From IMG/VR virus record IMGVR_UViG_3300028888_000110: 64,000 bases of DNA; one strand, given 5' to 3'. The notes beneath the pieces were generated by a model. It worked only from the letters and a program-made list of their open reading frames with translations. It was not told the origin of the DNA and searched no databases. The stretch is from a virus (taxonomy: Duplodnaviria > Heunggongvirae > Uroviricota > Caudoviricetes). Below, one piece after another: positions 8,508-64,000 of this stretch. The position numbers were made by a program, and so were the translations under genes. Positions within the stretch are counted from its first letter, which is position 1; every line of letters begins with the position of its first letter.

Positions 8508-8509
8508 TT

Positions 8510-8944: not shown

Positions 8945-8954
8945 TCACATTAGT

Positions 8955-9152: not shown

Positions 9153-9367
9153 TGGCTATAGAACAAGAAATCCCTTTTGAAGAATATAGAGATAGGCAAC
9201 TTCGCTTGCCTTTTACAGAGGAGCTAGATAAAATATTATCTGCCCATCCAGAGATGGTAGAGTTTGTTATCCACCCACACGACGATATGGTGGATGTAAA
9301 GATAGGAGGAGCTACATATTATGTTATTACAAAAAGGCAATATCATCTCTTGGTGGATGAAGAATAG
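9152..9367 (+). CDS. hypothetical protein (71 aa)
   Basis: Intact ORF in the supplied track with no TGA. Confidence 0.45.
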   Translation: MAIEQEIPFEEYRDRQLRLPFTEELDKILSAHPEMVEFVIHPHDDMVDVKIGGATYYVITKRQYHLLVDEE

Positions 9368-9539
9368 GTTATAAAAATTATAATAAAAAATATAATCTAT
9401 TTATAATGGAAGTCTCCGCCATTGTGGGGTGTTCGCACCAGACGGATTTAATCTGTACCACATAAAGAGGACAAGAGGTATAGTCTGCACCCTCTCTATA
9501 GAAATATAGGAGGAGAAGATTTAACTTTTAAACCAAAGT

Positions 9540-10124
9540 ATGGCAACTAAACGATTAAAAGTTCTCATAGTTGTTATGTCTGCTATCCTAGTATTTATGT
9601 TAGGGTTTAATGCATGACACTGAGAGGACATTGTATCTGAAGTGCAAGTTCAACCTGCCATTGAGACAGGGAGTGTAGCTACTTGAGAGGTAAAAGAAAT
9701 TGAAACAGTAATTTACACTCGAGAAGATACAAAAAAAGAAATTGCAGAAAAATTAAATTCACTTATTGGGGATTACAATATTAGCTATGCAATCATCCAT
9801 GAGTGCTCAACTCAAACAGATGATTATAAGCTATGTGTGACTAACCTACTCTGAGTAGCTAATGCTGAGAGTAGTATGTTCAAAGCAGGAATGAAACCAA
9901 GCAACAATGGTTTTTGATGGCTATATAAATGAAAGAAAAGAAAATTCTCAAGCGTAGAAGAATCCATAAAGCAATGGGTTGCAATGTACGTAAGGAATAA
10001 TTGGGGAAAGAGAGTTACTTGAGACGCACGGTTGAAAGGTAACTATTGCACTAGCTCCTGCAGTAATTGGGTGAAAGCCTATAACTCAGCAGCTAAAAAA
10101 ATAGAAAAACTTGAACTCTGGTAG
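9540..10124 (+). CDS. exported/membrane-anchored protein (194 aa), possible cell-wall hydrolase
   Basis: Strong SD (AGGAGGAG) 10 nt upstream. N-terminal TM/signal (LKVLIVVMSAILVFMLGF). Frame verified: start 9540 and TAG 10122-10124 are both mod 0. The AIIHECS...NAESSMFKAG segment is only weakly reminiscent of lytic transglycosylase E-S motifs. Confidence 0.4.
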
Positions 10125-10151
10125 CTCAAGTAATTCGACTATACCTCTTTA

Positions 10152-10185
10152 TAAAAAAAGACTTGACAACTCTATCTAATACACT
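10152..10185 (+). promoter_or_regulatory. sigma-70-like promoter TTGACA-N17-TATAAG
   Basis: cTTGACAactctatctaatacacTATAAGg, about 50 nt upstream of the 10238 gene. Confidence 0.4.
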
Positions 10186-10237
10186 ATAAGGTAGATGTGG
10201 AAAATAAATTTACCCAAAAACAAAAGGCAAAAACAAA

Positions 10238-10495
10238 ATGAGAGTCGTACCTCAAATCCTTCTTAAAGAAGGAGATTTAGTAGAAAGTCCCAACGGGAAT
10301 CATATATGGTGCGTAGTGGGAGACATAGAGTGAACCCCTATGTTATCTGATGGCACCAATATATTTTGTCCTAGTTGGGGCTTTTATTTTAAAAAAGATG
10401 ATTGAAGTCTTACCCCAATAGTTGAGGATTCTTCGGTTTTAAAACGCTACAAGTTTTATTTTAATTTTGACACCGAAAGTACCTGGGGTTTTTAA
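10238..10495 (+). CDS. hypothetical protein (about 85 aa)
   Basis: Leader AAAACAAAATG. Frame followed to a TAA near 10495. End approximate. Confidence 0.35.
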
Positions 10496-10827
10496 AATAA
10501 AAAGTGGCAATATTACCACTTTCCTACACAAAATTATTTTACTTTATATTAGTTGAGAGTTGATGAACAATTATTATCCTCTGTCGCGAGTTCGCAGACA
10601 GTTATGAGATGAAGAAGTTCAGCAAATGGTGGTAACCCCAACCGAGAGAAAAGGCTGGAGCTACTTATTTGCCAATAATGACTGAGAGTGGTTGGTAGTA
10701 CAGACAAATGCCCACCACTCAATAACCTCTGTATCCTTTACCCACAAATACAAAGGGCTTTGAATGTCCCTAAAGAGGGCCAAAACAAAATGATTTAGAA
10801 TATGCCGATACCCCGGTAGGCTAGTCA

Positions 10828-11213
10828 ATGAAGAAAATTAGATATAGACTAGCGAAAATATCGAGCGAGGTATGTTATAAAGATTTCCAAATTGAAGTCA
10901 AGGGGAATTTTAAAATATATTATATAATGAAAAATTCAGCATCTAACAAGCGAAAATCTATGACATTTAAAGAAACCAAACAGGGGCTATACCGTGAGGC
11001 TATAGCAAACAAAATGGAATGGACGGATGAACTCGACTGAGACTTCTCTACCGAAGTAGAATTTCTTCTCGGTCTAAAGGGCCGATGGCTCCTTTGCCAT
11101 ATAAGGAAAGAATATCCTTACACTATTAGATTTAGACTTATAGGGGAGAAAGACTACGAGAAGGCTAAGCCAGAAAAATTCATTACGCTTGCAAAACAAA
11201 AGCTTTTACATTA
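10828..11213 (+). CDS. hypothetical protein (about 128 aa)
   Basis: The track ORF 10828-11040 continues through one TGA to a TAA near 11213. It overlaps the 3' end of an alternative upstream ORF (10563-10841, MNNYYPLSRV...). Which of the two is expressed is unclear. Confidence 0.3.
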
Positions 11214-11225
11214 AACAAAAACGAT

Positions 11226-11510
11226 TATGGGAATAAATCCATATAAATCAGTGAATGGCTACACCGTAGTCTATAACCACTGAGCTATTAAAATTATTAC
11301 TAAGGATAAATTGGACGTTATGGAATGAGTGATATACCTACCAAAATCTCTCATACAATTTATTTTAGAACAAGATATTCCTTCACCATTAAAAGCTTCA
11401 GTGCTATCAATTAATGAAGAGGTGTGATGTTTAGTGGATGCTATTTGTTTTTCTCCCGACGAGAAAACGGGGTTCTTAACTCTAAAGAATCTATATTATA
11501 TAACAAAATA
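11226..11510 (+). CDS. hypothetical protein (94 aa)
   Basis: Open code-25 frame MGINPYKSVNGYTVVYNHGAIKII... to TAA. Confidence 0.35.
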
Positions 11511-11519
11511 AAATTCCTC

Positions 11520-11547
11520 TTGACACAGGAAATAAAATCCTTATAAA
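11520..11547 (+). promoter_or_regulatory. sigma-70-like promoter TTGACA-N16-TATAAA
   Basis: TTGACAcaggaaataaaatcctTATAAA, 15 nt upstream of the 11562 start. Confidence 0.4.
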
Positions 11548-11561
11548 AGGGTTACCTTTAT

Positions 11562-12275
11562 ATGAAAGGTACCTTTATTTACGTTATTATTATCGCAATG
11601 CCAATCTATTGACAGAAAACTTCAACAGAGGATAAGCCTCGTCACCCATCTCTTTCTTGGGCTAATTGGAAGAATTGAGCTTTTGTTGCTTGGAATAGAG
11701 ACACACAAGCTGAAGAAGAAATCAAGCTTCCTTCTAAATTCTTTGTAGTAGCAGAAAGCTGGAGTATCAAAGGATATTTAGCAGAGAAATGATGAGTTTA
11801 CTCAAATGAAATTTACAGCTTCCCTAACGATGTGTTAACCGTTAGAAGTGGTAGCTGAGAAGTTTTATATGAATGACTATGGGCAGACATAAAAGATAAG
11901 ATTAAATCTTTAGGTTTGAAGCTTATCAAGAATGTACATTACATCGACCCTAAGAAACCAGAAGAATTAAGAACATTCTGTATCAAGGGTGCTGCTTTAA
12001 AAGAGTGGATGGAAACATTCTCTGATGAAAATAGAAACGCAGCTTGAAATAACTTCCTTTCTGAGGGAGAAGTAAAAGAATGAAAAACTTGAGCAGTAAC
12101 TTACACCTTCCCTTCATTTAAAATTGGAGCAGCATTAACTGAAAAAGAAAGAGCTGTACAACAAGAATGGGGAATTAAGTTACTTACTTATACTCAGGCC
12201 ACAATTACTTCTAAAGAAGAAGTAGAAGAAAAAGCTGCAGTCAAATATGATGACGATAATTTACCTTTTAACTAG
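11562..12275 (+). CDS. hypothetical protein (about 237 aa), possibly DNA-binding/recombination-associated
   Basis: Long open frame with seven TGA-Gly codons and an acidic C-terminus (KYDDDNLPFN), as seen in some phage ssDNA-binding proteins. No motif-level proof. Confidence 0.35.
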
Positions 12276-12502
12276 GAGATGAGTAGCCTCCTAAAAAGGC
12301 TCAATTTAATTTAAGACAATATACTATGGCGAATACAAGTTACGAGTTAGGGTGAAAAACGTTTTTAAAATGTAAAGGATGCTGAGAATTTAAGGAACTT
12401 AATACTGAAAATTGGTATACCCATAAGGAGGGATACCTTTGAGTCCTCTGAAGGTGTAAAAAATGCATCTTAGCTTGAAGGAAAACAGAGCACGAACGCA
12501 AA

Positions 12503-12826
12503 ATGGCAAGGGAAAGAGATAAGGATAGATATTATAACAATCCTAAAAGAAGAGAATATGTATATCAATCTTCAAAAGAAAGAACTGAAAGACATGAAAA
12601 AGAAGGTGGTTGATGGAATAAATATCATCTAAGAACTAATAGAATAATAAAAAAATTATGAATCCGTCCTAAGGAATGCCCTATATGTTGATATAAATGA
12701 CGCATCGTCGCTCACCATCCTGACTACAAGGAGTGGAATAAAATTGTTTTTTGTTGCCAACCATGTCATGACAAAATTCATAAGAAAAAATTAGATAAGT
12801 ATACAGTCATAGATTTATTGAATTAA
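12503..12826 (+). CDS. HNH endonuclease (about 107 aa from the first ATG; the in-frame Cys-rich region from 12350 may extend it)
   Basis: Frame verified by position. CPICGYKGRIVAHHPDYKEWNKIVFCCQPCHDKIH is a classic C-X2-C...HH...N...C-X2-C-H HNH zinc-finger nuclease signature. Upstream in frame lie CKGCGEF and CKKC, but no ATG. Confidence 0.55.
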
Positions 12827-12850
12827 TTTTATTAGTTTATACCTGGCATT

Positions 12851-13600
12851 ATGCTCTACCACCAATTTGCACCTCTTAAGGAAGATTATAAAACTATTAT
12901 AGTTTCAGTGACGGAAATAGAGAAAGCTCTAGTACCTGCTCCTTCTTTTGTTCAAGACTTGGAACCAAAGAAGAAAGCTAACACATATTGGGTATGAAAC
13001 CTAGTAGAAAACATTGTCTTTGCTAGAATAAATCAATGAGTTGAGGCAGCTCAACACCAAATCGAGATTGCTAGATGAATGATGAACCCAGAAAGGATGA
13101 GATACTTTTCTGCTAGTTGAGTAGAAGATAAACAGTTCTTGCGATTGTATGATTGACTAGAACAGCTTATTCCATTATCTGAGCAATATGAAGCTATAGG
13201 TATGTATGATATAAGAAGCCTTAGGAGTGCAGTCGAGGTAGACTTTAGCTGATATAAAATAATTCTCACGTGAGAAATAGATTGGGGAATGAATTGAAGT
13301 ATGCTTTTTGATTGCAAGACAGCTAAGAAAAAATGGGATGAGAATGAGAAACGAGAGTTAGGGTGTTATCAATGAAGATTTTACCCTTGGTTCCAATTCC
13401 TACAGCATCCAGATATAGATTCTATAGCATTTAGTTATCTAGTATTCACAAAGCAAAAAACAATCCAACACCAAAACATTACTCATATCATTAAAAGAGA
13501 TGAGGCAGAGCAATTCGTGAAAGAAAAGCTCTACGATTATTTAGTGTGAGTTCATAAAGGGGATATACAAACCACGGAAGGCTCACTCGATAGAATGTAA
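12851..13600 (+). CDS. hypothetical protein (249 aa), possible PD-(D/E)XK-type nuclease
   Basis: Open frame with ten TGA codons. The ILTGEIDWG...ELGCYQGRFYPWFQ region loosely resembles nuclease motifs. Weak. Confidence 0.3.
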
Positions 13601-14060
13601 TGAATAAAGATAGTCAACGTTGAGCTGCAACAGAGCTCATTGAACTTATAGCTAATCTTATTGCTAGTTATTCACATCATAGTGAGCTATACAATTCTAT
13701 ACAATCTGACCTAGTTCATCCTGAGTTATTCACGGAAGAACAAATAAAACAGATGGAAGAGGATAGTATGTGGCACTATCAAAAAATGACTAGCCTCTTG
13801 GAGGAGAGAAGACTAGCTATGAGAAAACTGAAAGAAGGGGCTGTAGAATGTGACGACCATATGCGATGCTTGGTTAAACATTCTATAGCCTCTTATCAAT
13901 TTAGCCAAGAAGTTCTAAATACAAATATGGATGACTTAGATTATATCCACTTGGCTGAAACTGCTTACCAATATATGTATGAATGTGTGAGCAAATTCCT
14001 ATGAGTCACATTGGTAACCTGTGCTAGGTGCCTAGAAGATGAACTCAATTTACAAAAATA
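13600..14060 (+). CDS. hypothetical protein (153 aa)
   Basis: Its ATG overlaps the upstream TAA (ATGTAATGA). Contains track ORF 13753-14004. Confidence 0.4.
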
Positions 14061-14070
14061 AAAAAATAAT

Positions 14071-14634
14071 ATGCAAGAGAATATCTATGAAAAGGTATTA
14101 AACTTGTACAAAAAAGATTTAGATAGTTGACGTATTCTTCTTTATGAAAATATGCAACTCTTGATGAGGAGAAACCCACTTCTTCGTCACAAGAATTATA
14201 CCTTTACTAAAGATGACATCTGTTCGGAAGCGTTTATGATAGCTGATGATATCTTGCTAAGAAAGGATATTCCAGATGAAAAGAAAATATCTAAACTATG
14301 GTACTTATTTAATAGATGAGGCTGAGCCTTGTATAATAAGTTAAACCAATATGGACTAGAGAGTTATACTATAGATGATATTAGGGATAGCGAAAATCGA
14401 AGCTACGATATGGATGTCGATATGCTACAGTATGTGCTAGTAATTAATAATATAATTACCCCATTGGAAGCAACTGTGCTCCAATACCTATGAGATTGAA
14501 GGGGGAAATATGAAATCGCAAGACTAATGAAAACCACATACTATAATGTGAGGGATATTGTAGACACAATTGCCCTTAAAGTTAAAAGATTTTTATCAGA
14601 ACAAGATGATTTAGAAAATGCAGACAACAGCTAG
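14071..14634 (+). CDS. sigma-70-family RNA polymerase sigma factor (187 aa)
   Basis: C-terminal region-4-like HTH ATVLQYLGDGRGKYEIARLMKTTYYNVRDIVDTIALKVKRFL and an N-terminal region-2-like part. Frame checked: start 14071, TAG 14632-14634. Confidence 0.55.
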
Positions 14635-15196
14635 AGGAGTTCGTAAGGAACTCAAGCAGATAATTTCTGTGTACCAGTGAGTAATAGAGTTCTCAATAGA
14701 GAAACTGGGAATGGAAATAATAATTAAGCAAGCTAAGGCTGACCCAGATGACTTGTTGGACTCTATTAATAATCACTTGATAGAAGTATGCTGAAATTAT
14801 CTAGAGACCCATAGCATAGGGCTCGATAAATATCAATTAGCAACTATCATTATGGACCTATATACTAAGACAATCTCTGAACTAGATGAACCATTTCGTG
14901 TGACAATTAAAGAATCAAAGCACCTAATTCAAGATTACCTAGAAAAAAATAAGGCTAAGAAAGAAACATTAGAAAGAATTAAGAAAGAGAATGAGAACTT
15001 AGATAAGGAGGTAGCTATTAGAAAGAAGGAGCAACAAGAGAAAAAGGTTAATTTAAGGCCAGAACCCGAAATGCCGAGTGAAAATTTAGAAGTGGGGTAC
15101 ACGGGGACCCAAGCCCCCTCTCCTAAGCCAAAGAAAACGAGAGCTAGATGAACCGACGCTCTTGCTATTGACCACTTCGTTTTACCTTGATTATAA
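14618..15196 (+). CDS. hypothetical Glu/Lys-rich protein (192 aa)
   Basis: Frame verified by position from ATG 14618 (overlapping the sigma gene by 17 nt) through track ORF 14852-15151 and two TGA codons to TAA 15194-15196. Confidence 0.45.
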
Positions 15197-15201
15197 TAGG
15201 G

Positions 15202-15651
15202 ATGCAAAAACTTGATTATATTCGTAGAGCTCCTTGAATTACTGATTTCAATACTCTAGTAGATAAGCTAAACGAAATCATAACTAAGCTCAATTCAAAA
15301 ATAGAAATAGAAGAAGTCGCTATTTCTAGAGAAATAAAAGACTTCACATTCTTTAAAGGGGAAGAAACTAAACTACCATACCACATAGAATATGCCATTA
15401 CGTCTAACGAAGATGCTACAAAAATCTTCGAGCTATATAACTTCTCCTATAAAGAGATAAAACAAATCAATGACATTATCATTAAATGAAATGTCGTTGC
15501 TCTTACAATAGATGTAACTGAGGAAATGACAGAGAAAGATAAAAAACAAGAAGTTATATTTGAAAAGGTGGAAGCTATTGAGTTAGATAAACCTATTAAG
15601 GTTAAATGAAAGAGAGGAAGAAAGCCTAAAAAGAAAACCTCTTGGGAATAA
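15202..15651 (+). CDS. hypothetical protein with basic C-terminal tail KGKRGRKPKKK (149 aa)
   Basis: Open code-25 frame. AT-hook-like tail suggests DNA binding. Confidence 0.35.
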
Positions 15652-15677
15652 AAATTTATTTAAACAAAAACAAAAAT

Positions 15678-16136
15678 ATGTCATTTGTATCTGACCTTGC
15701 AGTAGGCGAAGCTTGCCAAATAGAATTTGCTAAGCTATTACTTGATACGGAGAAGGTTATTAGCCTTGAAATCGCTCAATGAAAGTTTAAACTTTGGGAT
15801 ATAAGAATTACTACCCCAGAATGAGAGAAGACCTATGAGATAAAAAAGGATTTAAAAGCCCCAGAAACAGGAAACTACGTGATTGAAACTCGCTGTTCGT
15901 GAAAGCCCTCTGGTATCTATACTAGTAAAGCAGATTACATAGTATATAATGTAAAGTGAGAATGGTGGTGTCAGGAGAGGTGAGAGTTAATCCTTAGACT
16001 TATGGATGTAGAGAAACGTACTACTAAATGAGGGGATTGACGAAGGGCTGAAATGTTTGTATTAAGTTGCGATACCTTACCTATTTTATTCACCAAAATA
16101 GAAACAAATGGACAAACTTGAGAAGAAAATAATTAA
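15678..16136 (+). CDS. hypothetical protein (about 152 aa)
   Basis: Leader AAACAAAAACAAAAATATG. Frame followed to TAA 16134-16136, overlapping the next gene by 29 nt. Confidence 0.35.
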
Positions 16137-16392
16137 GCAAGAAAATGCTATAGCTGAAACCTTAAAAGAATTCCTAAAACATTTTAATAGAGTTTGGTAT
16201 TCTATAAAGGAGCCTAAGGAAGAATTAGAAAAATTCTTTGACTTGCAGGATAGCTGAGATGGTATAGTCTATATATTTGTGAAGACTAAAGAATGAGATT
16301 TTTCTATGGGCTACACTATGGATGTCAGCCTAGATGATATGCAAAGTATGGTTAATTATCTCAAACTAAGAGCAGATGTTTATCTTAGATAA
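16108..16392 (+). CDS. hypothetical protein (94 aa)
   Basis: Frame verified to TAA 16390-16392. Confidence 0.4.
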
Positions 16393-16401
16393 AAAACAAA
16401 A

Positions 16402-16908
16402 ATGTCTAAACAAAAACAAAAATTTGAATGATGGGAGCGAGATTGTGTAGATGCTGATGTATCGATAGACACTCCTGTTACATTAGTATTATATTTCTAT
16501 GGGAATATACCTAGTAAAAAAAATTGAAGAAGAAATTTCTGAAATATTTCATTACCATCAGCCAATTACGTAGAACGAAATAAAAGGATAACTAATAAGT
16601 TAAAAGGGTTTGTCCCTCTACTATGATTAGGTCCTTATTCTATAGATATAAAAACAATAGCCCACACTAAAAGAAGAAAGGATTGTGATAATGTTGTCTC
16701 TAGTATTATGGACACTCTACAAGACTTAGAATTTATCTCTGACGACGACAATGAAACGATTAGAAAAATAACCGTGACTAATGTGGGATATATAAAGAAT
16801 GCCCCCATTGCTAGAATAGAAATAAAACAATATTGTGAAGAATGATACAATATTGATACAGACCACAAAGGGAAAGACTTAAAACAATATAAATATTATT
16901 TAAATTAG
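16402..16908 (+). CDS. rusA: RusA-like Holliday-junction resolvase (168 aa)
   Basis: GNIPSKKNGRR...KRRKDCDNVVSSIMDTLQDLEFISDDDNETI matches the RusA acidic D-x-D-N / DDD catalytic cluster. Leader AAACAAAAACAAAAATTTGAATG. Frame verified to TAG 16906-16908. Confidence 0.55.
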
Positions 16909-16931
16909 TTTTATTATTTACAAAAATAAAA

Positions 16932-17431
16932 ATGGCAAAAAAAGTTGCAGTAAATGTTAGAGAGGCTAAATTAATGGAACAAGCTTTCTCAAAGAATTCA
17001 TTTAGATATCTCACTCTAGATGAACATAAAACTTTAGACAAGGCTTATAAAACCTTAAAAGAAAGTGAGGTATATAATAAAGTAGGATGAGAAATCCAAG
17101 CAGAAGCAGAAAGATTAGTTGCAGAAAAATGTATGCCAGAATGGAATAGAATCTCTGAAGAAATGAAACCTTTAGGAGAAGAGAGAAACAGATTAGCGAA
17201 GGAGAAGGCAGAAGCAAAAGAATGAGAATGGCTACAGGAAAGTGAGGATAAATTAATAGAAGTGGATAAAAAAATAGCTGATTTATCTAGTGAATACCAA
17301 TCAGTCACAGATAAGGCTAATGCCGAATTAAATGAATTTAAAGAAGAAAAAATTAATAGCACAAAAGAAGCTTGTTTCTTCTTAAGTGAAGAAGATTACC
17401 AATTTGTAGGTGAATTATGCTGATTTTACTC
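16932..17431 (+). CDS. hypothetical coiled-coil protein (about 165-180 aa)
   Basis: Open frame from ATG 16932. The 3' end is uncertain (hand-translation frame ambiguity, 17431-17473). Confidence 0.3.
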
Positions 17432-17449
17432 TGCTAACTAAACTATCAC

Positions 17450-18148
17450 ATGACCATCATTGCTGCAAAACAAATACAAAATAAATGGGCTTTATTCACA
17501 GACGACTGCGTAACAATGTGACAATCGCAAGTAAGTGCTGCTAGAAAATATCGTCCTAAACTAAGAGAAATTGACTGAAAGAACTATGATTTAGTTATAG
17601 CTTCCTGTTGATGAACTAGAGAAATAGATTTGTTTTTAAACCTTCTTGAAGCTAAGCTTGAAATCACTAAAGTAAAAACTACAATGGATTTAGGCGTAGC
17701 TATTCAAACTACACTAATAGAGACTCGAAAAACTCTATTAGAATTAACGAAAGACCCATCTATTTGACTGCTAATCTTAGAAGTTAACACTAATACCCTA
17801 TGGCATACAGATGATTATAGTATGTTTAGAGTATCAGATGAATGAGAAATTGTTGCAGGTAGTTGAGAGCAAGCATTTCTCTCTAGCAACAAACATCGCG
17901 ATTTCCTAGAGAGTTTAAAGTTAGCTGTTTTAACGGACGAATATTGCGAATTCCCTATCTATGCTTATAGAGATGGAGATATGTATGAATTCTACGATTG
18001 GCTAACAGTAGGGGAAATGTTAGACATTTTACTTGATAGAAGAAAAGATGATTCAATCTACTGCAACGGAGAATGCGTGGAAAACTCACTCTGCCAATCT
18101 CCCACAAAACCCGGATGAATGAGTAAATGCAACTCAGAAAAACTATAA
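17450..18148 (+). CDS. HslV-like Ntn-hydrolase peptidase (proteasome beta-type fold) with Cys-rich C-terminal extension (232 aa)
   Basis: N-terminal M-TIIAAKQ (Thr directly after Met). IASCGGTREIDLFLNLLEAKLE aligns to HslV [32 protein letters not shown] matches the HslV GSGG segment. Frame verified (17450 to TAA 18146-18148). Confidence 0.5.
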
Positions 18149-18192
18149 ACTAATAGAAACTCTCATTTCTAAAAATAGCAAACTTGAAAAGA

Positions 18193-18279
18193 GAATGGAC
18201 GAAATGGAAATGAATTTTACTATACTATGTATAACACTAATAGTAAGTTTAATCGTAGTCTTTATAATCTTTTCAATAT
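18193..18279 (+). CDS. very small membrane peptide (28 aa)
   Basis: MDEMEMNFTILCITLIVSLIVVFIIFSI immediately before the terminator. Speculative. Confidence 0.2.
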
Positions 18280-18280
18280 A

Positions 18281-18310
18281 AAAAACTCCCCAATTAAGGG
18301 GAGTTTTTAT
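18281..18310. terminator. bidirectional rho-independent terminator at the strand switch
   Basis: AAAAAACTCCCCaattaaGGGGAGTTTTTAT: a 7-bp GC stem with A-run and T-run flanks. It sits between the last + gene and the last minus-strand gene (stop at 18311). Confidence 0.7.
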
Positions 18311-19746
18311 ATTAAGCTAATATTGTATGAATTAGGTTCGCATAAAAATTAAATCACGCCTCTCATCCATTATCGCTCTGTCACTCGTCAATTCATAATA
18401 AAGCGAAGTGCCCAGTAAGAAAGGCGGCAGGAATGTTAGCCATCATACTTCATGAATGGGTTATTGTGGTATTTATTTTTAGCCCCACGCATAGCACATC
18501 TCAATAATCTAATTCTACTATGGTGTTTCATGTCACTGTAACCCTATCCATTACTGCTCATAGTGAAGCAGAGTACCCCGTTCAAGCTTGTCATTCTACT
18601 TCTGTCTTCTCTCAAACCAAAGGATAATCCATATGGAACTCAGAATAACTTACAGATGGAGCGGTATCTCAACTTCATCATGAAACGCTTGAGACATATC
18701 TAATATTTCAGGCTCATCACATTATAGGCTGCCAAGGTTCATAACCTAATGGTCAAGAGTATCTACTTTCAACAATTGTATTCCTTCTATTAAAGCTACC
18801 TCAAGGAATTTTTAGCAGCTGTACTCTAAAAGCATGGACTCAATAAGAAAATTCTGCACTTCAAGAAAATCAAACTTGATATAATCATTTCTTCGTTATT
18901 CTAATTCGTCAGTTTCATGGATTTTCATCTGTTCAGTTAAAGAATTCCAAATTCTTTCTTAAAGAATTTCTAGCTTCTAGCGCTCATCAGCTAGGGCGGG
19001 TTGACGCCCGCAGTACTGGGCTAAGTTCTCCTAAATATCTTTCCACACCCGAATCAAGTGTCCCAGTAGGAAATGAAAGAATGTGGTTATCTTTTAGTAC
19101 TAATTTAGCATAATACGCCTTCATGTCAGCGTCTGTAATAGTTATTCTGTGTCCACTAGCTGTTGCATTAATTAGATTAGAATTATCTATAATTTGTATA
19201 TCTGGAATTGATGGGCATTTAGGTAAAACATCCTCATCAATAGATATTTTCAACTTGCTGTTAGTATCTCCATCGCACCCAACCTCATCTATATTAATTC
19301 AATATCACTCTTGTAGTTTTTGATTAAGATATCCTGGAGTAGTATCGCCGCTACAGGCTTTTACTTTTTCATCTAATGCGCTCACCTCCCATCAACCATC
19401 CACTCAACAATCTCATCAATCCATATAACAATCGTCTGGAGGAGTTATATCTCTTACCACAACATTGCCTCCAGCTTTAACATACGTAGGCTTGGGACAT
19501 TCTGCTGTAAGCTTAACTACTCAGCATTCGCTTGTATCAACCACAAGGCAGTCATTGGTGGATTGTATATTGATTCAACAGTTATCGCTACAAGATTTTC
19601 AACAACAGTTAGTGTTGCAGTCTTCAGGGTCAAGTATCGATACAGAGGCTATATCTCAGCTATCGATTGTACTTGTTATAACGGTTATTTTATCATCTGG
19701 GCAATTATTATTACAAGGGCTACAAGGTTGTTTACATTTACAATCG
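18311..19746 (-). CDS. tail-fibre-like protein (about 478 aa): Cys-rich N-terminus, Gly-rich C-terminal half
   Basis: Minus-strand code-25 translation from ATGAGCGAT (19746) is continuous through track ORF 18987-19253 to TAA at 18311. Many GG/G-x-G runs. Last gene before the convergent terminator. Confidence 0.4.
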
Positions 19747-19815
19747 CTCATAGATTATTTGTTTTTATATAAAATTATTGTTAAGTGGGACAATTACCCA
19801 CCTAGACATTTTAAC

Positions 19816-20322
19816 GTGTCTTATTTAATTTTCGGTATCAGTAGTACCTGGATTTTCTCATCATTCAGATACGGTATTTTCTTCTTTTTTATTTCATACC
19901 CACATAGAACATTCTTCTTTGCCACAATATTTTTTTATACAGTTACAATATTGGCACCTGCTTCGTGCAGAATCTCCATTCCATTTATGATGGGTGTCCG
20001 GATTTAGTGTAGGCTTGAAATCTTTTACCTCGTCCACTTTCTTCTTAGGAGTATATGGCTTATATCAACTTTTATAATTAGCTACTGCCTCATTAAATTT
20101 CTCTTCATCAATTGCCCCTGTGATATACTCATAAGCTGTGTACGCATCAATCTTATCTGTATATGCTCTAAATTCATTTAGCTTCTCTTTTACTAAATCC
20201 TTAGCGACTCAAAATTTAAGCAAGTCATTTATAAATGATACTTGTTTGTTTGTTGAGTTACAATTAGGGCATCCGCCTCATTTACAAGAACAACGACAAT
20301 TTTTCTCACAAAGTGCACAACG
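19816..20322 (-). CDS. Cys-rich hypothetical protein (about 168 aa)
   Basis: MRCALCEKNCRCSCKGGGCPNCNS...CQYCNCIKKYCGKEECS. The overlapping + track ORFs 19465-20007 and 19563-19772 are spurious mirror frames. Confidence 0.35.
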
Positions 20323-24377: not shown

Positions 24378-24595
24378 AGAATATTTACGGATAAAATCTG
24401 AATTATTTATTTTATCTTCACTAAAGTAAACCCTAGATGCGAACTCGGATTTCTTACCTTCGTTATATCAGCTAAATGGACGTATGTAACCCATAACTCT
24501 TGTATACACTTCACAGGGGGTTCTTTGATAAGTTTTTCAATCACTTCACATAACTTCAACTGTTTCAATCTGTTTTGGCATTTTATTAATTAGGT
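24378..24595 (-). CDS. small protein (72 aa) carrying an anaerobic-RNR (NrdD) C-terminal glycyl-radical-like motif
   Basis: MPKQIETVEVMGSDGKTYQRTPCEVYTRVMGYIRPFSGYNEGKKSEFASRVYF is compared with the NrdD C-terminal signature R-V-C-G-Y-L...W-N-x-G-K-x-x-E...R. No full-length nrdD is nearby. Confidence 0.35.
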
Positions 24596-25034
24596 AATGG
24601 GGTAAAATTAAATTATTACATCGCTTCTATACCATTCATATGGGTCGTTAATATCTTTACTTGTGAGAGTTTCTATTAGCCATTCTCTCACATCTTTCCT
24701 CAAAGCTTTTGCGCTAATATCAACTGTTGTGAGTAGCTGTTCTGCTAACATCTTGTTAGCAAAAAGCGTATGGATAGCGCGATGATAATTGTCCTGTATT
24801 AGTTCTATATTTTTTCACACATTTGCTCAACCTTGACTACGAGGGAGTAGATGGTGACGGCTGTATGTCTTCTCTCTTGACATTCTTTTCTTGGTTTTGT
24901 TGAAATAAACACAGCATTTCGTAGCTACATTTTCGACAAGTTTTCTTCCATCATATTCATTGTCTGCATTTATCTTCTCATTCTTTATGGTATCTAAATT
25001 TCTCCATTATTGTTTTTTAAAAGGCTTAAAGTTT

Positions 25035-59860: not shown

Positions 59861-62010
59861 TAGACCATTCTTTAAATTTGAAAGGAAGTCTCAGCTTGTC
59901 TCCTGTGGTTTCTGGTATCTCTCAGCCCGATATTCCTCTGCTAATTGCTGATTACTTTTTACGCTACCAATCTTGGCCACATCTTTTGTGGCGAGTTGGT
60001 CGTGGAACCAAGCAAAATAAAGCACAAGCATCATTCCAGAAACCTGGTCATCGTGTTTCTTTTTCTCTCATCTAGCAGAAGCTCTCCACTTTTTAAAATG
60101 GGATAACTCCTCAACTAATCCATTCTCTCAATAACAAGCTGGGTCAATATGTATCAAGTTAGTGTCAAAGAAACTGCTCCTAATCATTTCAATACACCGA
60201 GCCTTTCATACATTATGCCTAGCTCAAGGTTGATATGTGACATTACCTGTCCACTTGATAAGCATATCAACCGGCATTCAAAGCATTCACAATTCCCTGG
60301 CTGCAGCCCATCAACGAGAAGCATCTAATACTAAGTAAACAGGTTTTCATTTATTTTTCAAATCCTGAATAACCTGCTTCATTTTAGAAAACCTCTCATT
60401 ACTCTCCTTGGCTAAGTTATAAGTTTCTTTAATGTAATACTTTCAATCCTTAGCTCCAAGGATACAGAGTCAAGGGTTATCGAAGGTATCAGCTTCATCG
60501 TAACCTACAACCCGATAGTCACATTCACTAGGGCAGGCTAGCTGCACTCATTCAACATTGAATACGGTTTGGTCTGTGGAATATTCTCCATAGTATTCGG
60601 CAAGCATATAATCATAACCTCTAGCGTTTAAGACTCTTATTACCTGGGCTTGTTTCTGTTCTTCTGTTAAGAATTCAACATCATCCATTGTAAAATGTAA
60701 AGCTACTTCTGGACGACGCTGAATAAACTCAGCTCTCATCTTTTCAAAATCTCAATTCTTTATTTTCCTTAAATAATCCTTTCTATCCTTACATAGATGC
60801 AACCCATATTTAATCCATATATCATGAATAAGCACATCTATAGGTTCATATTCTCTTTGGTTCTTATAAGCATTAAGCCAACCTTTATAGAAGTTTCAGG
60901 CTTGTGTATTTGGTCAAATCGTTGAAATGAGTGTCACTAATGAGTCTGCTGTAGACATAGCAGTTCATACATAATCCCAATCCAAGTAATCAGCTTCGTC
61001 TCACACAAACTTTCTAGTTCTACGACTACGAGTAGGGTCATTCTGATTTGTAGTCACATATTCAAGCTTCCTTTGTTTATCTCCGTCCACAATGTAAAGC
61101 CCCGAACTATCTGGAAGTTTATTACAGAAGCTAGGTAAATCTATAAGATTATTTAACATCTGCTGAGCATAAACCATATATGGTGCATTCTGTTTTTGGC
61201 TTAACCCCATATAAAGTTGTGTCCATTCCTGCACTCTTTCATTATTGTCAGTAATCTCCTTTAACAAATATCAAGCCATATCTCAGTTAATATAGAGAGA
61301 TTTACCTCATCACCTAGGACCAATTACATATGTCACTCATCAACTCAATAACCACACCATCATCTGCCAACGCTGCAAAACAAATCAATGAAATGTCTTT
61401 CAACTATCAGCTAGCATGGCCTCAAATAGCTTTGGCTTATATACTCAAAATACATTTGTCTTATATTCAGTACCCTGTACATTATATGAAATAGAGAAGT
61501 CATCTCATAAATCCCAATCAAGATATTCTGTTTTATTTAGATTCTTTTTATTTTTACCCATAGGGATTTTTAATGGACTAACTCTGAATTGTCATAGTAT
61601 GATATCTTTCATTATGCAAAGGGCTAATACATTTTTTGTGCTCTCCAAAGCAGATACATCCTCTTTTTCTCTTCTATGAAATACTCAATTTATATCTAAT
61701 TGGTAATCATCTAGAAACTTCGATAAAATAAATTCCATCCTAGTAGATACCGCTCACTTTGTAACAAAGGTTAAGAATTTAGTATCGATATCTTGCTTAA
61801 GTAATTTGTCGGTCCCCAATGGAATTTGTACAGGTATATCTAAATCTGGAGGGCGCTTGATGGTTATTGTGACCATAAGTTTTTTATTCTTTTCATATCG
61901 CTCCTCGGCTTCACGAGGCTCAAGAGTGAATTTTAGATTCATCTTATCCCCGTTATAAAATAATCATCATTTATCATCCTGAAAATCTTTATACAAAAAT
62001 CATCGTGCCA
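59855..62010 (-). CDS. terL: terminase large subunit (about 718 aa)
   Basis: Walker A VIGPRGGGKS, with the two central Gly encoded by TGA (+ coordinates about 61301-61325). Walker B FVGDEADYL. Coupling motif LISTIG. C-terminal RNase-H-like nuclease region containing VVGYDEADTFDN. Track ORFs 61001-61267 and 60548-60739 are fragments of it. Confidence 0.7.
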
Positions 62011-62012
62011 TA

Positions 62013-62952
62013 TTATGTAGGTATAATATAAAACCATTTTTCTCGTTCATTTGGTTGATACTTAACTAGGTAAGTATCCCATAAGATATATATTTTTAAA
62101 TCATCTGTTTTCTTTTTTAGCCAATCCATTCTTTTTTTATGTAGCTCATCAACTGTATCTTTAGTTAGCCAAGGTATATTATTCTCTAGACAAGGACGGT
62201 ATATATTCCCCGCCTGGCTAATAATCACATCCCCTACGAGGAAACTAACTCTACCTAAATAAACTTCACTAATTATATATTTATCTCTAAGCATAGCAGA
62301 GGCTACACTACATACTTGATTCATCGATATATCTGTATTATCTACAAGCTTTCTCATGTTTCATCAAGTAGCTCGCATAGGGTTTTTTGTGAGAGATTGT
62401 CTCTTAGATAGTTTTAAATCTCCTAAGCTTATCTCGTTTATATGTGGCTTCAAATATTCATAAGCCCTATCTTGTATTCTTCACAGATTTGTTAGCACTC
62501 ATCACAAATTAGCAAAGTTATAAACCATAACAGGTTTAATATAAGCTTCTTCCTTGGATGGTTTAACCCAATTTAATCTAGAAACTCGTCGAGAAAATTT
62601 AAACTTCCCCTCGTAATTAATATCATCGTCTCTAAATTTTTGTGTGTAATATTTATCTCGATTAATTATTTCTGGGACATCGGCATAAATTTCATCAATG
62701 AGCTCTCACACAAACAATTCTTCTTCCTTCTTTTTCTCTTGATATTTCTTTTTTATCTCCTTTCTTCTATTTTTGTAATATTCTTTCTGATACCAATCTC
62801 GATATGCCTCTTCTCACATTTTCTCTTTCATCTCTTTAGCTATTTCCTTTTTGGATTTTATTTCCTTTTCTTTTGCCTTCAGAATCCTATGATAGCTTCA
62901 TTTTTGTTTTGGATTTTCTATAATTTCTCATTGTAAATCGTTGAATAGTGAC
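62013..62952 (-). CDS. hypothetical protein (about 313 aa) upstream of terL, possible small terminase subunit/DNA-binding protein
   Basis: Lys/Glu-rich N-terminus (KEKEIKSKKEIAKEMKEK...). Ends ...FYIIPT at a genuine TAA (62013-62015), 3 nt before the terL start. Includes track ORF 62013-62357. Confidence 0.35.
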
Positions 62953-62969
62953 ATAATGGTGTAATGGGT

Positions 62970-63060
62970 AAATATTATTCTCTATTAATAGATTATATTT
63001 TTTTGGGGCGAAATAAAAAAAATTCTTTTGACTTTTTTATTTTTACTGTAGAAATATGTA
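62970..63060. promoter_or_regulatory. divergent promoter region: late-promoter-like box (copy 4, minus strand) plus + strand TTGACT-N15-TAGAAAT-like element
   Basis: + strand: CTCTATTAATAGATTATATTTTTTTGGGGCGAAATAAAAAAAATTCTTTTGACTTTTTTATTTTTACTGTAGAAATATG. Also the palindrome GAGAAAAATTTTCTC at 63124-63138. Confidence 0.4.
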
Positions 63061-63183
63061 GTGCAAATCTGGTCTAACAAAATGTTATAAAAATTTGACA
63101 AAATTTTATAATCTATTGTTAGAGAGAAAAATTTTCTCTTGAAATTTTATTTGGCACAGATATTTTCTAGCCAAGTAAACAGA

Positions 63184-63275
63184 CAAAACCCCGGTAATTG
63201 CGTTACATAGGAAGTCAGGGCCTATGGCAATGCGCTTCTATGTAACACCCTGACAACAGTTGTCGGGGTTTTTGT
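63184..63275 (+). ncRNA. GC-rich structured RNA-like element with H-type pseudoknot topology in the divergent intergenic region (possible origin-associated structure, riboregulator or ribozyme-like RNA)
   Basis: Outer stem CAAAACCCCGG / CGGGGTTTTTG. Stem 1 GTTACATAG(63202-63210) pairs with CTATGTAAC(63238-63246). Stem 2 GTCAGGG(63214-63220) pairs with CCCTGAC(63248-63254). The order s1-s2-s1'-s2' forms a pseudoknot. No ORF, and GC content is far above local background. Confidence 0.35.
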
Positions 63276-63337
63276 TTACTCATAAAATAATCAAACGAAA
63301 AAATACTACCATTTACCCATTTACCCACCAAACAAAA

Positions 63338-64000
63338 ATGCCAAACATTCAATTAGAAATGATGAGAGAGAAATATCCTCACTTCAAAGAATGCACTATT
63401 CAACTTTTTGATGACACAAAACAATGAAGAGATTTGGCTAGGAAACTAGACCAAAACAAATTCTCTGATGAAGATTTGGAAAGATGATTAGAGGCATACA
63501 ACAAAAAATGAGCGGGGGTATTCTTTTCTATAAACTCAATGTTGCCTTGAGAAAGAGACAAAACTAGTGTGACAAGGGTAAATGCTTGGGCGTGCGAGGT
63601 AGATGACCTTAGCAAAGAAGACCAACTGAAGTTAATTTCAGTGGCTCCTCTGGCCCCAAGCCTCATAATAGAAAGCCACAAAAGTTTCCATATGTATCGG
63701 TTTGCTAAAGATGGGACAATAGAAAATTGGACAAAGGTATGTCGATGACTTAGAAATTTTTTTGGCTGAGACCCAGCAATAGCAAGTGACATATCAAGAG
63801 TGCTACGTGTTCCTTGATACAACCATATGAAGGATGCCAACAATCCATTTATGTGCGACATTATCGATTGAAATTGAGAATATTATACAGAAGAAGAAAT
63901 GCTCAAAGCTTATCCAGACACAGAAACATTAGCAGACAAAGAGGCTAGAGCTATTAAAAAAGAACAGCAATTAAAACAAGCTGTATGAAATGATGATGCA
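63338..64000 (+). CDS. primase-polymerase (AEP-superfamily)-like replication protein, 5' partial at window end
   Basis: Leader AAACAAAAATG. The code-25 frame stays open to the window end. AGVFFSINSM...VNAWACEVDD...LIIESHKSFHMYRFAKDG resembles bifunctional primase/polymerase N-terminal motifs. Tentative. The minus-strand track ORF 63400-63861 is probably spurious. Confidence 0.35.

What the first reader, a model, noticed from the sequence alone, without database searches (positions are those of the whole stretch)
63184..63275. GC-rich pseudoknotted RNA-like element in the divergent region between the packaging and replication genes
Within a roughly 90-nt window three helices interleave: CAAAACCCCGG / CGGGGTTTTTG (outer), GTTACATAG / CTATGTAAC and GTCAGGG / CCCTGAC. 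The order s1-s2-s1'-s2' gives an H-type pseudoknot. The surrounding DNA is very AT-rich and non-coding. It could be an origin or packaging structure, a cis-regulatory RNA for the primase-like gene, or a small ribozyme-like RNA.
Basis: seen in the sequence. Interest (0 to 1): 0.6.

Follow-up and report, generated by a model that had tools for sequence, protein, structure and literature searches.

The report
Two-state pseudoknot–terminator leader RNA in a phage
The flagged element is real: it is a conserved, previously undescribed structured RNA at the head of the replication operon of rumen-type phages that read TGA as glycine, and it can fold either into a transcription terminator or into a pseudoknot that takes that terminator apart.

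Summary
All three helices sit at the stated coordinates, and the fold is far more stable than shuffled sequence (z about -5).

I found the same element in 14 distinct versions on about 30 related metagenomic contigs. It always lies just upstream of the first gene of the rightward (replication) operon. All three helices, including the pseudoknot, are kept through compensatory changes: 90.6% of cells are paired, 22 of 31 pairs change on both sides, and slid controls give 33-41%.

A classic intrinsic terminator (CCCUGACA/UGUCGGGG followed by UUUUUGUUUAC) is equally conserved (98% paired, 5 of 8 pairs covary). It cannot coexist with the pseudoknot or with the outer helix. G.U pairs outnumber A.C pairs 45 to 10, which points to a plus-strand RNA.

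No Rfam family matches. No unpaired nucleotide is invariant, so a metabolite aptamer or a ribozyme is unlikely.

- **Best reading (about 0.45):** a bistable cis-acting attenuator, or antitermination leader, for the early replication genes. Its trigger is unknown.
- **Main rival (about 0.3):** a stand-alone small RNA that terminates with the local hairpin and then refolds.
- **Weak point of the best reading:** the closing helix also abuts the U-tract, so the closed state might terminate as well.

The parts
63095..63112 (+). Conserved block TTGACA-N6-TATAAT inside the palindrome TATAAAAAT-TTGAC-ATTTTTATA. Candidate rightward promoter. TATAATCTA also occurs in mirror orientation towards the left gene.
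   Evidence: Sequence-conserved in all relatives. Coordinates. A similar TTGAAA-N6-TAAAAT occurs at 1203 and 1236. The transcription start is not determined.
63123..63139 (+). Palindrome or hairpin H1: AGAGAAAA / TTTTCTCT. Either an operator or a 5' RNA hairpin. It abuts the conserved TCTCTTGAAA.
   Evidence: Conserved, with variants AGGGGAAA, AGGCAAAA/TTTTGTCT and AGGGA/TCCCT. A DNA or an RNA role is unresolved.
63139..63166 (+). Sigma-70-like site TTGAAA-16 nt-TATTTT. A start about 7 nt downstream would fall at the first base of the closing helix.
   Evidence: The -35-like TTGAAA is conserved in relatives, while the -10-like hexamer varies.
63151..63174 (+). P0: an inverted repeat of variable sequence (here TTGGC...GCCAA) around the -10-like box.
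   Evidence: Present in every relative with a different sequence (for example CTACATT/AATGTAG, CTTTATC/GATAAAG, AACTACA/TGTAGTT). In some lineages a copy of its 5' arm recurs after the U-tract. It could be an operator or an RNA hairpin.
63175..63200 (+). 5' strand of the long closing helix P1: GUAAACAGA (63175-83), an A-tract, and the core 'a' CCCCGGUAAUUG (63189-63200).
   Evidence: P1 core: 12 pairs, 90.8% paired, 8 pairs with changes on both sides. The A-tract and 5' end pair with the U-tract and tail in all members.
63202..63246 (+). Hairpin S1 (63202-63210 with 63238-63246). Its large variable loop holds segment d.
   Evidence: 97% paired, 8 of 10 pairs with changes on both sides.
63214..63220 (+). 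Segment d (GUCAGGG): 5' strand of pseudoknot helix S2, inside the S1 loop.
   Evidence: S2: 6 of 9 pairs with changes on both sides. 82.8% paired over all 9 pairs; 93% (72 of 76 cells) in the core x1-x6 on the 13-sequence alignment. Register control.
63221..63237 (+). Variable loop L2. Its 3' part (anti-d) can pair with d and so extend S1 (S1x).
   Evidence: The extended hairpin is more stable than with a shuffled L2 in 11 of 13 members (p <= 0.05). Length is 14-25 nt with no conserved sequence.
63248..63255 (+). Segment b (CCCUGAC[A]). It is both the 3' strand of pseudoknot S2 and the 5' strand of terminator hairpin T.
   Evidence: Triple covariation of b with d and with c (for example L061 and L055).
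63257..63268 (+). Segment c (CAGUUGUCGGGG). It is both the 3' strand of the P1 core and, at 63261-63268, the 3' strand of terminator hairpin T.
   Evidence: T: 98.2% paired, 5 of 8 pairs with changes on both sides. It is the only terminator-like site in 62800-63500.
63269..63279 (+). U-tract UUUUUGUUUAC. It is invariant, and in the closed fold it also pairs with the 5' A-tract.
   Evidence: Invariant columns 119-129 in 14 sequences, although the A-tract partner varies.
63338..64000 (+). First gene of the rightward operon in this window: RepB-type primase, N-terminal part. It runs off the window.
   Evidence: Pfam RepB_primase E = 5e-07. PHROG DNA primase. TGA read as Gly.

Best explanation
The element is the transcribed leader of the phage's rightward early (replication) operon, and it works as a two-state RNA switch built around an intrinsic terminator.

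**State X.** Hairpin S1 is extended at its tip so that segment d is hidden. Segment b pairs with segment c to give a local GC-rich hairpin followed by UUUUUGUUU. RNA polymerase stops about 60 nt before the first gene.

**State Y.** Both halves of that terminator are taken away:
- b pairs with d in the S1 loop (the pseudoknot);
- c, together with the U-tract, pairs with the 5' leader segment (the long closing helix).

Polymerase then goes on into the replication genes.

**Shown here:** the four helices, their mutual exclusivity, their conservation by covariation, the plus-strand polarity, the fixed position at the operon head, and the near-equal stability of the two folds.

**Inferred:** that the hairpin terminates host RNA polymerase, that state Y lets it through, and that something sets the balance. 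No conserved unpaired nucleotides exist, so I expect the input to be a macromolecule or a kinetic parameter rather than a small metabolite. Candidates are a phage or host protein, an RNA, or polymerase speed or pausing acting on the S1 tip or on the free 5' strand.
For: - **Structure.** Outer helix, S1 and pseudoknot together: 90.6% of cells paired, 22 of 31 pairs changed on both sides, 0 of 500 shuffles as good, slid controls 33-41% (13-sequence version).
- **Terminator T.** 98.2% paired, 5 of 8 pairs changed on both sides. The U-tract is invariant while its A-tract partner is not, as expected if the U-run is needed as a terminator and not only for pairing.
- **Shared strands.** b is used by both S2 and T, and c by both P1 and T. 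Single substitutions in c are matched in both partners (L055, L061 and L054).
- **Polarity.** G.U against A.C cells: P1 15:5, S1 13:1, T 16:1.
- **Balance.** At the decision point, E(S1+T) and E(P1 core+S1) differ by 1 kcal/mol or less in 7 of 13 members. The nested MFE is the terminator fold in 6 members and the closing-helix fold in 7.
- **Tip of S1.** It hides d more stably than shuffled loops do in 11 of 13 members.
- **Position.** One copy per genome. It always follows the conserved promoter block and lies 35-60 nt before the first plus-strand gene, whatever that gene is: primase in the window, a small ORF in most relatives, another ORF in L012.
- **No bypass seen.** I found no consistent sigma-70-like promoter between the terminator and the first gene (my reading of the sequences). 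The essential replication genes therefore appear to depend on read-through.
- **Precedent.** Lambdoid early genes are preceded by terminators that must be overcome, and HK022 does this with a cis-acting RNA just downstream of its early promoters (PMC9378689).
Against: - The closing helix P1 ends exactly at the same U-tract and is flanked by an A-tract, so state Y could itself act as a terminator. If so, the two folds would not differ in read-through.
- No effector has been identified.
- No transcript ends or read-through have been measured.
- The transcription start is uncertain, with two candidate promoters.
- My alignment was fitted by hand to the proposed helices, which inflates the pairing percentages, although the slid and mis-registered controls argue against an artefact.
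- Promoter types of code-25 hosts and of this phage are unknown, so an unrecognised promoter downstream of the element cannot be excluded.
- The operon scanned here (1-20000) contains no other strong terminators, so processive antitermination is not obviously needed.
Confidence: 0.45

Rival explanations
1. It is a stand-alone small-RNA gene. The local hairpin T with its U-tract terminates the RNA efficiently during transcription. The released RNA of about 105-115 nt then refolds into the more stable closed form: closing helix with paired 5' and 3' ends, S1 and the pseudoknot. It acts in trans as a protein decoy, an antisense RNA or a primer. The downstream genes are expressed from an unrecognised promoter or by a modified polymerase.
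For: - The full-length closed fold is about 12 kcal/mol more stable than the terminator fold (-44.2 against -32.4 in the window).
- The start predicted from TTGAAA-16-TATTTT falls on the first base of the closing helix, which would give an RNA with paired ends, as many stable small RNAs have.
- P1 flanked by an A-tract and a U-tract looks like a strong terminator in its own right, so both folds may terminate.
- Hiding d at the tip of S1 would keep b free so that T forms first.
- The element is independent of the identity of the next gene.
Against: - Only 35-60 nt separate the U-tract from the next start codon, and no consistent promoter is seen there.
- The essential replication genes would then have no evident promoter.
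- In several lineages the 5' end pairs with sequence 10-25 nt beyond the U-tract (GUAG/CUAC, GUAG/CUGC, GAUAA/UUAUC, AACUACA copy). An RNA terminated at T would not contain that sequence. This outermost complementarity could, however, be an operator repeat at the DNA level.
- No trans target has been identified.
Confidence: 0.3
2. It is an RNA processing or stability module of the operon mRNA. In read-through transcripts the long imperfect closing helix (about 30-45 bp including the tail) is an RNase III-type processing stem or a 5' stabiliser. The terminator is a leaky side feature.
For: - The closing helix extends well past the U-tract and reaches the 5' end or the P0 3' arm in all lineages.
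- Phage early transcripts are often cut at such irregular long hairpins. This point rests on my own knowledge of T7 and lambda and was not tested here.
Against: - It does not explain why the local terminator hairpin, the pseudoknot and the anti-d segment are each maintained by covariation.
- It does not explain why the U-run is invariant.
- No RNase III signature can be tested with these tools.
Confidence: 0.1
3. It is a metabolite-sensing riboswitch of ON type. A small ligand stabilises the pseudoknot, which sequesters the 5' half of the terminator.
For: - The pseudoknot's 3' strand overlaps the terminator's 5' strand. This is the logic I recall for pseudoknot ON riboswitches such as the fluoride and ZTP classes, but I did not check that here.
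- The two folds are near-isoenergetic.
Against: - There is no invariant unpaired nucleotide. Every invariant column lies in a helix or in the U-tract.
- Linkers and the large loop vary in length and sequence.
- No Rfam riboswitch matches in the window or in 8 relatives.
Confidence: 0.07
4. It is a DNA-level element: a replication origin or single-strand initiation site for the neighbouring RepB-type primase, or a packaging site. The helices would then form in single-stranded or cruciform DNA.
For: - It lies next to a RepB_primase-like gene in the divergent control region.
- G.T pairs are tolerated in single-stranded DNA, so the strand bias alone does not exclude a plus-strand ssDNA structure.
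Against: - The element is unchanged in relatives whose replication module is different: DUF6291 plus DnaB, or AAA_25/DnaB_C fusions.
- A hairpin with an invariant T-run, oriented with the downstream genes, is a transcription signal.
- Mutually exclusive folds of equal stability have no obvious role in an origin.
- The flanking sequence shows no iterons.
Confidence: 0.04

Closest known systems
Multi-hairpin transcription attenuators with a terminator and competing upstream pairings. Examples I know of are the trp-type leaders and the antisense-RNA-driven attenuators of plasmids pT181/pIP501 that control rep genes (own knowledge; pT181 attenuators are described as antisense RNA transcription regulators in PMC3753616).
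   Same: - A leader RNA between the promoter and replication genes.
- A terminator whose strands have alternative partners upstream.
- A chain of mutually exclusive helices that decides between stop and read-through.
   Different: - Here both halves of the terminator have their own upstream partner: d for the 5' half, through a pseudoknot, and a for the 3' half, through a long closing helix.
- No leader peptide is conserved.
- No minus-strand promoter for a countertranscript was found in 62800-63500.
- The closing helix abuts the same U-tract.
HK022 put RNAs (putL, putR): cis-acting RNA antiterminators (PMC9378689).
   Same: - A phage-encoded RNA of about 70-110 nt just downstream of an early promoter.
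- Structure-defined, acting in cis on termination of early transcription without a requirement for a conserved sequence core.
   Different: - put is two stem-loops in a V shape that bind the RNAP beta' zinc-binding domain. It has no built-in terminator and no pseudoknot, there are two copies per genome, and it acts on terminators kilobases away.
- Here there is one copy, the terminator is part of the element, and no strong downstream terminators were seen.
- RNAP binding cannot be tested here.
ON-type riboswitches with a pseudoknot aptamer and a terminator expression platform, such as the fluoride and ZTP classes (own knowledge).
   Same: The 3' strand of a pseudoknot helix is also the 5' strand of an intrinsic terminator, so forming the pseudoknot precludes the terminator.
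   Different: - Those aptamers have highly conserved ligand-contacting nucleotides. This RNA has none.
- None of their Rfam models match.
- They lack a segment that pairs with the terminator's 3' strand.
conAn2 RNA of conjugative plasmids: the RNA element of a bipartite antitermination system (PMC8191782). The Tn916 paper (PMC11658703) was listed only; I did not read it, and any parallel with it is from the abstract line.
   Same: A mobile element places an RNA that controls termination at the beginning of a long operon.
   Different: - conAn2 is described as a large RNA element that works with a protein processivity factor.
- No such partner is identified here.
- No sequence or structure relationship was tested.

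Membership tests
Intrinsic (Rho-independent) terminator | GC-rich hairpin followed immediately by a U-run on the transcribed strand | tested here: met
   CCCUGACA-loop-UGUCGGGG followed by UUUUUGUUU. It is the only terminator-like site in 62800-63500. The stem is kept by covariation (98.2% paired) and the U-run is invariant in 14 sequences.
Intrinsic (Rho-independent) terminator | Actually releases RNA polymerase at the U-run | not testable with these tools
   Needs in vitro transcription or 3'-end mapping.
Pseudoknot (H-type topology) | Two helices with interleaved strands, both supported by evolution | tested here: met
   S1 is 97% paired with 8 of 10 pairs covarying. S2 has 6 of 9 pairs covarying. 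The register control gives 40.8% against 83.1%. The linker from S1-3' to S2-3' is only 0-3 nt, so the helices must lie side by side rather than stack as in a classic H-type knot. That point is an inference, and intermolecular pairing is not excluded.
Any described RNA family (Rfam 15) | Match to a covariance model | tested here: not met
   No hit on the element at gathering score. The best sub-threshold hits only cover the terminator part (E >= 0.057). There were no hits at E <= 1 in 8 relatives.
Metabolite riboswitch | Conserved aptamer core with invariant unpaired nucleotides | tested here: not met
   Every invariant column lies in a helix or in the U-tract. Loops and linkers vary in length and sequence.
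Metabolite riboswitch | Expression platform with mutually exclusive folds | tested here: met
   b is shared by S2 and T, and c by P1 and T. Both folds covary.
Self-cleaving ribozyme (HDV-like, twister, pistol, hammerhead) | Conserved catalytic core and family fold | tested here: not met
   No Rfam ribozyme model matches. There are no invariant unpaired nucleotides. The enclosing helix and the lack of P3/P4 equivalents do not fit the HDV topology (my reading of the sequence).
Antisense-RNA-driven attenuation (pT181 type) | A countertranscript promoter on the opposite strand within or next to the leader | tested here: not met
   The sigma-70 scan of 62800-63500 finds no minus-strand promoter-like site. 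I saw no conserved minus-strand -10/-35 in relatives. Promoter types of the host are unknown, so this is weak negative evidence.
HK022 put-type RNA antiterminator | Cis-acting RNA just downstream of an early promoter | tested here: inconclusive
   The position fits, but the transcription start has not been mapped.
HK022 put-type RNA antiterminator | Two-stem V-shaped fold that binds the RNAP beta' zinc-binding domain and suppresses distant terminators | not testable with these tools
   The fold here is different (closing helix, hairpin and pseudoknot). No strong downstream terminators are present in 1-20000.
Replication origin / ssi site of a RepB-type primase | Co-occurrence with the cognate primase | tested here: not met
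   The element is present next to RepB_primase genes (window, L061) and also next to DUF6291 plus DnaB or AAA_25/DnaB_C genes.

The most novel reading that the evidence does not exclude
The element may be a new class of RNA-only genetic switch. A five-segment chain of mutually exclusive helices (anti-d:d, d:b, b:c, c:a, 5' end:tail) would read a physical or macromolecular signal, such as polymerase speed or pausing, a phage protein, or the RNA's own concentration. It would thereby time the onset of replication-gene expression in phages of TGA-as-glycine (Absconditabacteria/Gracilibacteria-type) hosts, for which no gene-regulation mechanism is known to me.
Probability: 0.3. Interest if true: 0.75.

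Novelty: new variant of a known kind. Interest (0 to 1): 0.6.

Why it matters
- **Host group.** To my knowledge (I did not read the listed papers on phages of these hosts), no regulatory RNA has been described for phages that use genetic code 25, or for their candidate-phyla-radiation hosts. None of these can yet be grown routinely.
- **Experimental handle.** A compact RNA supported by covariation, sitting between the only conserved promoter block and the replication genes, can be synthesised and tested in vitro. It gives a direct way to study how such phages switch on replication.
- **RNA design.** Both strands of a terminator have their own decoy partner, one through a pseudoknot and one through a long-range helix, and the competing folds are kept near-isoenergetic across lineages. 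That is an unusually explicit natural example of a multi-state RNA and could serve as a template for synthetic attenuators.
- **If it is a trans-acting small RNA instead.** It would then be a new phage-encoded structured RNA of unknown function.

Tried and rejected
1. **Extra helix ATTGC/GCAAU** (5' of S1 with the S1 loop). It was suggested by the window and L001, but dropped because L054 and other lineages lack the loop partner. ATTGC belongs to the closing helix instead.
2. **Searches for homologues by DNA pattern.**
   - IMG/VR gave none with four patterns (nhmmer check).
   - GTDB genomes gave 32 hits, all unrelated and mostly a Chitinophagaceae 5S rRNA 3' end plus terminator.
   - INPHARED phages gave no match.
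   - The JGI metagenome scan gave 4 true and 13 chance terminator matches.
3. **Protein route through the primase.** Only 8 hits, because TGA-containing genes are fragmented by standard gene callers. A small TGA-free ORF next to the element worked much better.
4. **Second copies in the genome.** None were found.
5. **Leader peptide.** The window has an ATG at 63224 in frame with the primase, but it is not conserved in other lineages.
6. **Antisense promoter.** Not found.
7. **Need for processive antitermination.** There are no strong terminators in 1-20000.
8. **Independent promoter using the invariant TTTAC as a -35.** No consistent -10 follows at the right spacing.
9. **Giant 3304-aa protein as an N4-like virion RNA polymerase with hairpin promoters.** By eye the sequence shows HExxH and ART-like motifs of a polyvalent protein. 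The Pfam call failed on the TGA codons, and I did not pursue it.
10. **Left-hand genes as 'packaging' genes.** No Pfam or PHROG support.

Full report
**1. What is in the window**

With TGA as a stop codon the window is almost ORF-free. With TGA as a sense codon it is densely coding: 13 kb against 77 kb in ORFs of at least 100 aa.

TGA encodes glycine. It falls on the invariant Gly of GGSPC and of the GN motif of a C5-methyltransferase, on the Walker A motif GPRGGGKS, and on LAGLIDADG intein motifs. It also fits RVPG and FGGDP in the primase. This is genetic code 25, which points to an Absconditabacteria- or Gracilibacteria-type host.

The gene map is:
- plus-strand genes at 1286-18148;
- a long minus-strand block at 18312-62954;
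- a plus-strand RepB-type primase starting at 63338 (Pfam E = 5e-07; PHROG DNA primase).

The finding lies in the 384-nt divergent intergenic region between 62954 and 63338.

**2. The observation**

The region folds at -43.1 kcal/mol, against -24.7 +/- 3.7 for shuffles (z = -4.96). The minus strand gives a similar z.

Rfam has nothing for it. There is no hit at gathering score. Only sub-threshold hits to terminator-like parts of unrelated small RNAs appear, and nothing at E <= 1 in eight relatives. ARAGORN finds no tRNA in the window.

**3. Finding relatives**

- The primase found a 79%-identical relative (L001) and a 75% one (L054) that carry the element.
- A DNA pattern from the 3' part found four more in JGI metagenomes.
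- In relatives a small TGA-free ORF follows the element. It gave 34 protein clusters, and through them contigs L055-L075.
- IMG/VR, INPHARED and GTDB genomes hold no copy.

In total there are 14 distinct sequences on about 30 contigs, one copy per contig. Synteny is always the same. A 716-731-aa gene and a 292-351-aa gene lie on the minus strand. Next comes an intergenic region of about 350-480 nt that holds the element. Then follow the first plus-strand gene and the replication genes. Those replication genes differ between lineages: RepB_primase, DUF6291 plus DnaB, or AAA_25/DnaB_C fusions. Sample names suggest ruminant gut, which is an inference from names only.

**4. Anatomy**

I aligned the 14 sequences by hand, segment by segment. 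Every row was checked to be a substring of its contig. I passed the alignment to the tools with N as gap filler, and MAFFT kept it column for column.

| Helix | Cells paired | Pairs changed on both sides |
|---|---|---|
| P1 core (12 pairs) | 90.8% | 8 of 12 |
| S1 (10 pairs) | 97.0% | 8 of 10 |
| S2 pseudoknot (9 pairs) | 82.8% | 6 of 9 |
| Terminator T (8 pairs) | 98.2% | 5 of 8 |

- **Fold I (P1 core + S1 + S2).** Overall 90.6% of cells are paired and 22 of 31 pairs change on both sides. None of 500 shuffles reaches the observed paired percentage, double-change counts or covariation score (the count of further pair types was not above the shuffles, 342 of 500). Sliding the partners by 1-3 columns drops pairing to 33-41%.
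- **Register control.** An S2 string that I mis-registered by one column gave 40.8%, and 83.1% when slid back.
- **Fold II.** The scan of 62800-63500 finds no other terminator-like site.

Segment b (63248-54) is used by both S2 and T. Segment c (63257-68) is used by both P1 and T. The folds are therefore mutually exclusive. Substitutions in c or b are matched in both of their partners. For example, the base next to the U-run is G in nine sequences and C in five, and both a and b switch from C to G with it. In L061 an A-to-G change in b is matched by U-to-C in both d and c.

Two further layers:
- In every member the tip of S1 can extend by pairing d with the 3' part of the variable loop. This is more stable than with shuffled loops in 11 of 13 members.
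- The 5' A-rich leader pairs with the U-tract and with 5-25 nt beyond it. In L072 and L001 the tail even repeats the 5' arm of the upstream inverted repeat P0.

The result is a chain of alternative pairings: anti-d:d | d:b | b:c | c:a | 5' leader:U-tract/tail. It has two self-consistent states:
- **X:** extended S1 plus the terminator.
- **Y:** closing helix plus S1 plus the pseudoknot.

**5. RNA or DNA, and which strand**

G.U cells outnumber A.C cells 15:5 in P1, 13:1 in S1 and 16:1 in T. The structure is therefore selected on the plus strand.

The U-run is invariant although its A-tract partner is not. That fits a requirement as a terminator U-tract.

The element keeps its orientation and its distance to the downstream gene, and it is indifferent to the type of replication proteins. 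This argues against a primase-specific origin.

**6. Energetics**

With the RNA cut at the end of c, which is the moment of the termination decision, E(S1+T) and E(P1 core+S1) differ by 1 kcal/mol or less in 7 of 13 members. The nested MFE is the terminator fold in 6 members and the closing-helix fold in 7.

With the tail included, the closed fold wins by about 12 kcal/mol in the window.

**7. Upstream signals**

The whole intergenic region is conserved. It contains:
- a palindromic block holding TTGACA-N6-TATAAT (63095-63112), with TATAATCTA mirrored towards the left gene;
- a palindrome AGAGAAAA/TTTTCTCT (63123-63139);
- a conserved TTGAAA followed after 16-18 nt by a variable TA-rich hexamer (63139-63166);
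- an inverted repeat P0 whose sequence differs in every lineage.

I could not decide which promoter is used. I also could not decide whether the two palindromes are operators or 5' RNA hairpins.

**8. Mechanism**

My best reading is a cis-acting attenuator or antitermination leader (confidence 0.45). The replication genes have no other evident promoter. They sit 35-60 nt behind a strongly conserved terminator, and the RNA carries conserved decoys for both terminator strands.

No unpaired nucleotide is conserved. I therefore expect the input to be a protein, an RNA or polymerase kinetics rather than a metabolite.

The main weakness is that the closing helix also ends at the U-tract, so state Y might terminate too. 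In that case the element is better read as a small-RNA gene that terminates with T and then refolds (0.3). The other readings are a processing stem (0.1), a metabolite riboswitch (0.07) and a DNA origin (0.04). A ribozyme is essentially excluded.

**9. Comparison with known systems**

- It works like a multi-hairpin attenuator, and it sits where lambda nut and HK022 put sites sit (PMC9378689).
- It is not a member of any Rfam family.
- It is not put-like in fold.
- It lacks the antisense promoter of pT181-type attenuators.
- It lacks the conserved core of riboswitches.

I file it as a new variant of a known kind.

**10. Limits**

- There are no expression data.
- The alignment is hand-fitted.
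- The 14 sequences come from one phage group.
- Pseudoknot sterics and intramolecular versus intermolecular d:b pairing are untested.

Noticed in passing
whole window; e.g. 5669-7774, 59855-62050, 63338-64000: The genome uses TGA as a glycine codon (code 25). TGA falls on the invariant Gly of GGSPC and GN in a C5-methyltransferase, on Walker A GPRGGGKS, on LAGLIDADG motifs and on RVPG of the primase. This implies an Absconditabacteria- or Gracilibacteria-type host. Standard gene callers fragment these genes, and the phage group is absent from IMG/VR and INPHARED.
   Followed up: yes
window 1-1250: A GC-rich (0.44) non-coding stretch of about 1.2 kb contains several tRNA-like T-arms. ARAGORN finds no tRNA. 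Rfam finds one tRNA at 532-622 with a 24-nt insertion in the anticodon loop (an intron?), a weak tRNA at 1127-1199 (24.9 bits, below the gathering score) and a tRNA-like end at 669-760. These may be unusual or intron-containing tRNAs, perhaps linked to recoding.
   Followed up: partly
window 5669-7774 (+): A C5 cytosine DNA methyltransferase is interrupted, between GGSPC and QGFSMAG, by an intein with LAGLIDADG-type motifs (Hint-like C...HNC boundaries).
   Followed up: no
upstream 30 nt of nearly all predicted genes (list): Almost every gene has a TTTTA(T/C)-like motif about 15-28 nt before its ATG and no Shine-Dalgarno sequence. A longer version, TTTACCC(C)ATTAC, precedes the primase (63312-63326, duplicated), the first leftward gene (about 62957-62975, minus strand) and a site at 24594-24606 (minus strand). 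It could be a translation-initiation signal or a promoter signal of this phage and host.
   Followed up: partly
window 1203-1298 and 63095-63112: The motif TTGA(A/C)A-N6-TA(A/T)AAT, with only 6 nt between the hexamers, occurs three times: twice in a tandem repeat before the first plus-strand gene at 1286, and once in the conserved palindromic block of the divergent control region. It may be an unconventional promoter architecture.
   Followed up: no
window 63123-63139 and 63151-63174; equivalents in L008-L075: Two inverted repeats lie upstream of the element. AGAGAAAA/TTTTCTCT is sequence-conserved. P0 has a different sequence in each lineage, even between close relatives, as expected either for heteroimmune operators or for a structure-only RNA hairpin. 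In L072 and L001 a copy of the P0 5' arm recurs just after the U-tract.
   Followed up: partly
L002:495-615 (Logan DRR595520, primase 47% identical): A more distant phage carries a different-looking set of interleaved complementarities at the head of its replication operon: TGTAGGAGT/ACTCCTACA crossing CATATCAATAGAGGC/GCTTCTATTGATATG, with duplicated TATTGAT and CTTAC/GTAAG alternatives. It ends in a U-run. This may be an analogous leader. Upstream are repeats of GGTTCCGCATTTTTT.
   Followed up: no
relatives L001, L008, L015, L055-L075 (absent from the window): A small conserved ORF (69-100 aa, M(T/F)(R/K)xEIT(I/L)DDV..F(I/V)..) with no Pfam or PHROG hit lies between the element and the replication genes in most relatives. 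The window lacks it, and L012 has a different first gene.
   Followed up: partly
window 46509-56423 (-): A 3304-aa protein whose sequence shows, by eye, an HExxH metalloprotease motif and an ADP-ribosyltransferase-like stretch. It is possibly a polyvalent or ejected virion protein. It was not annotated by any search here.
   Followed up: no
Genome-contig loci L022-L053: In Chitinophagaceae genomes the 5S rRNA gene is followed by a terminator, CCCTGACA-loop-TGTCGGGG-CTTTTT, nearly identical to the phage terminator stem. This explains the 32 false hits and is probably convergence.
   Followed up: yes
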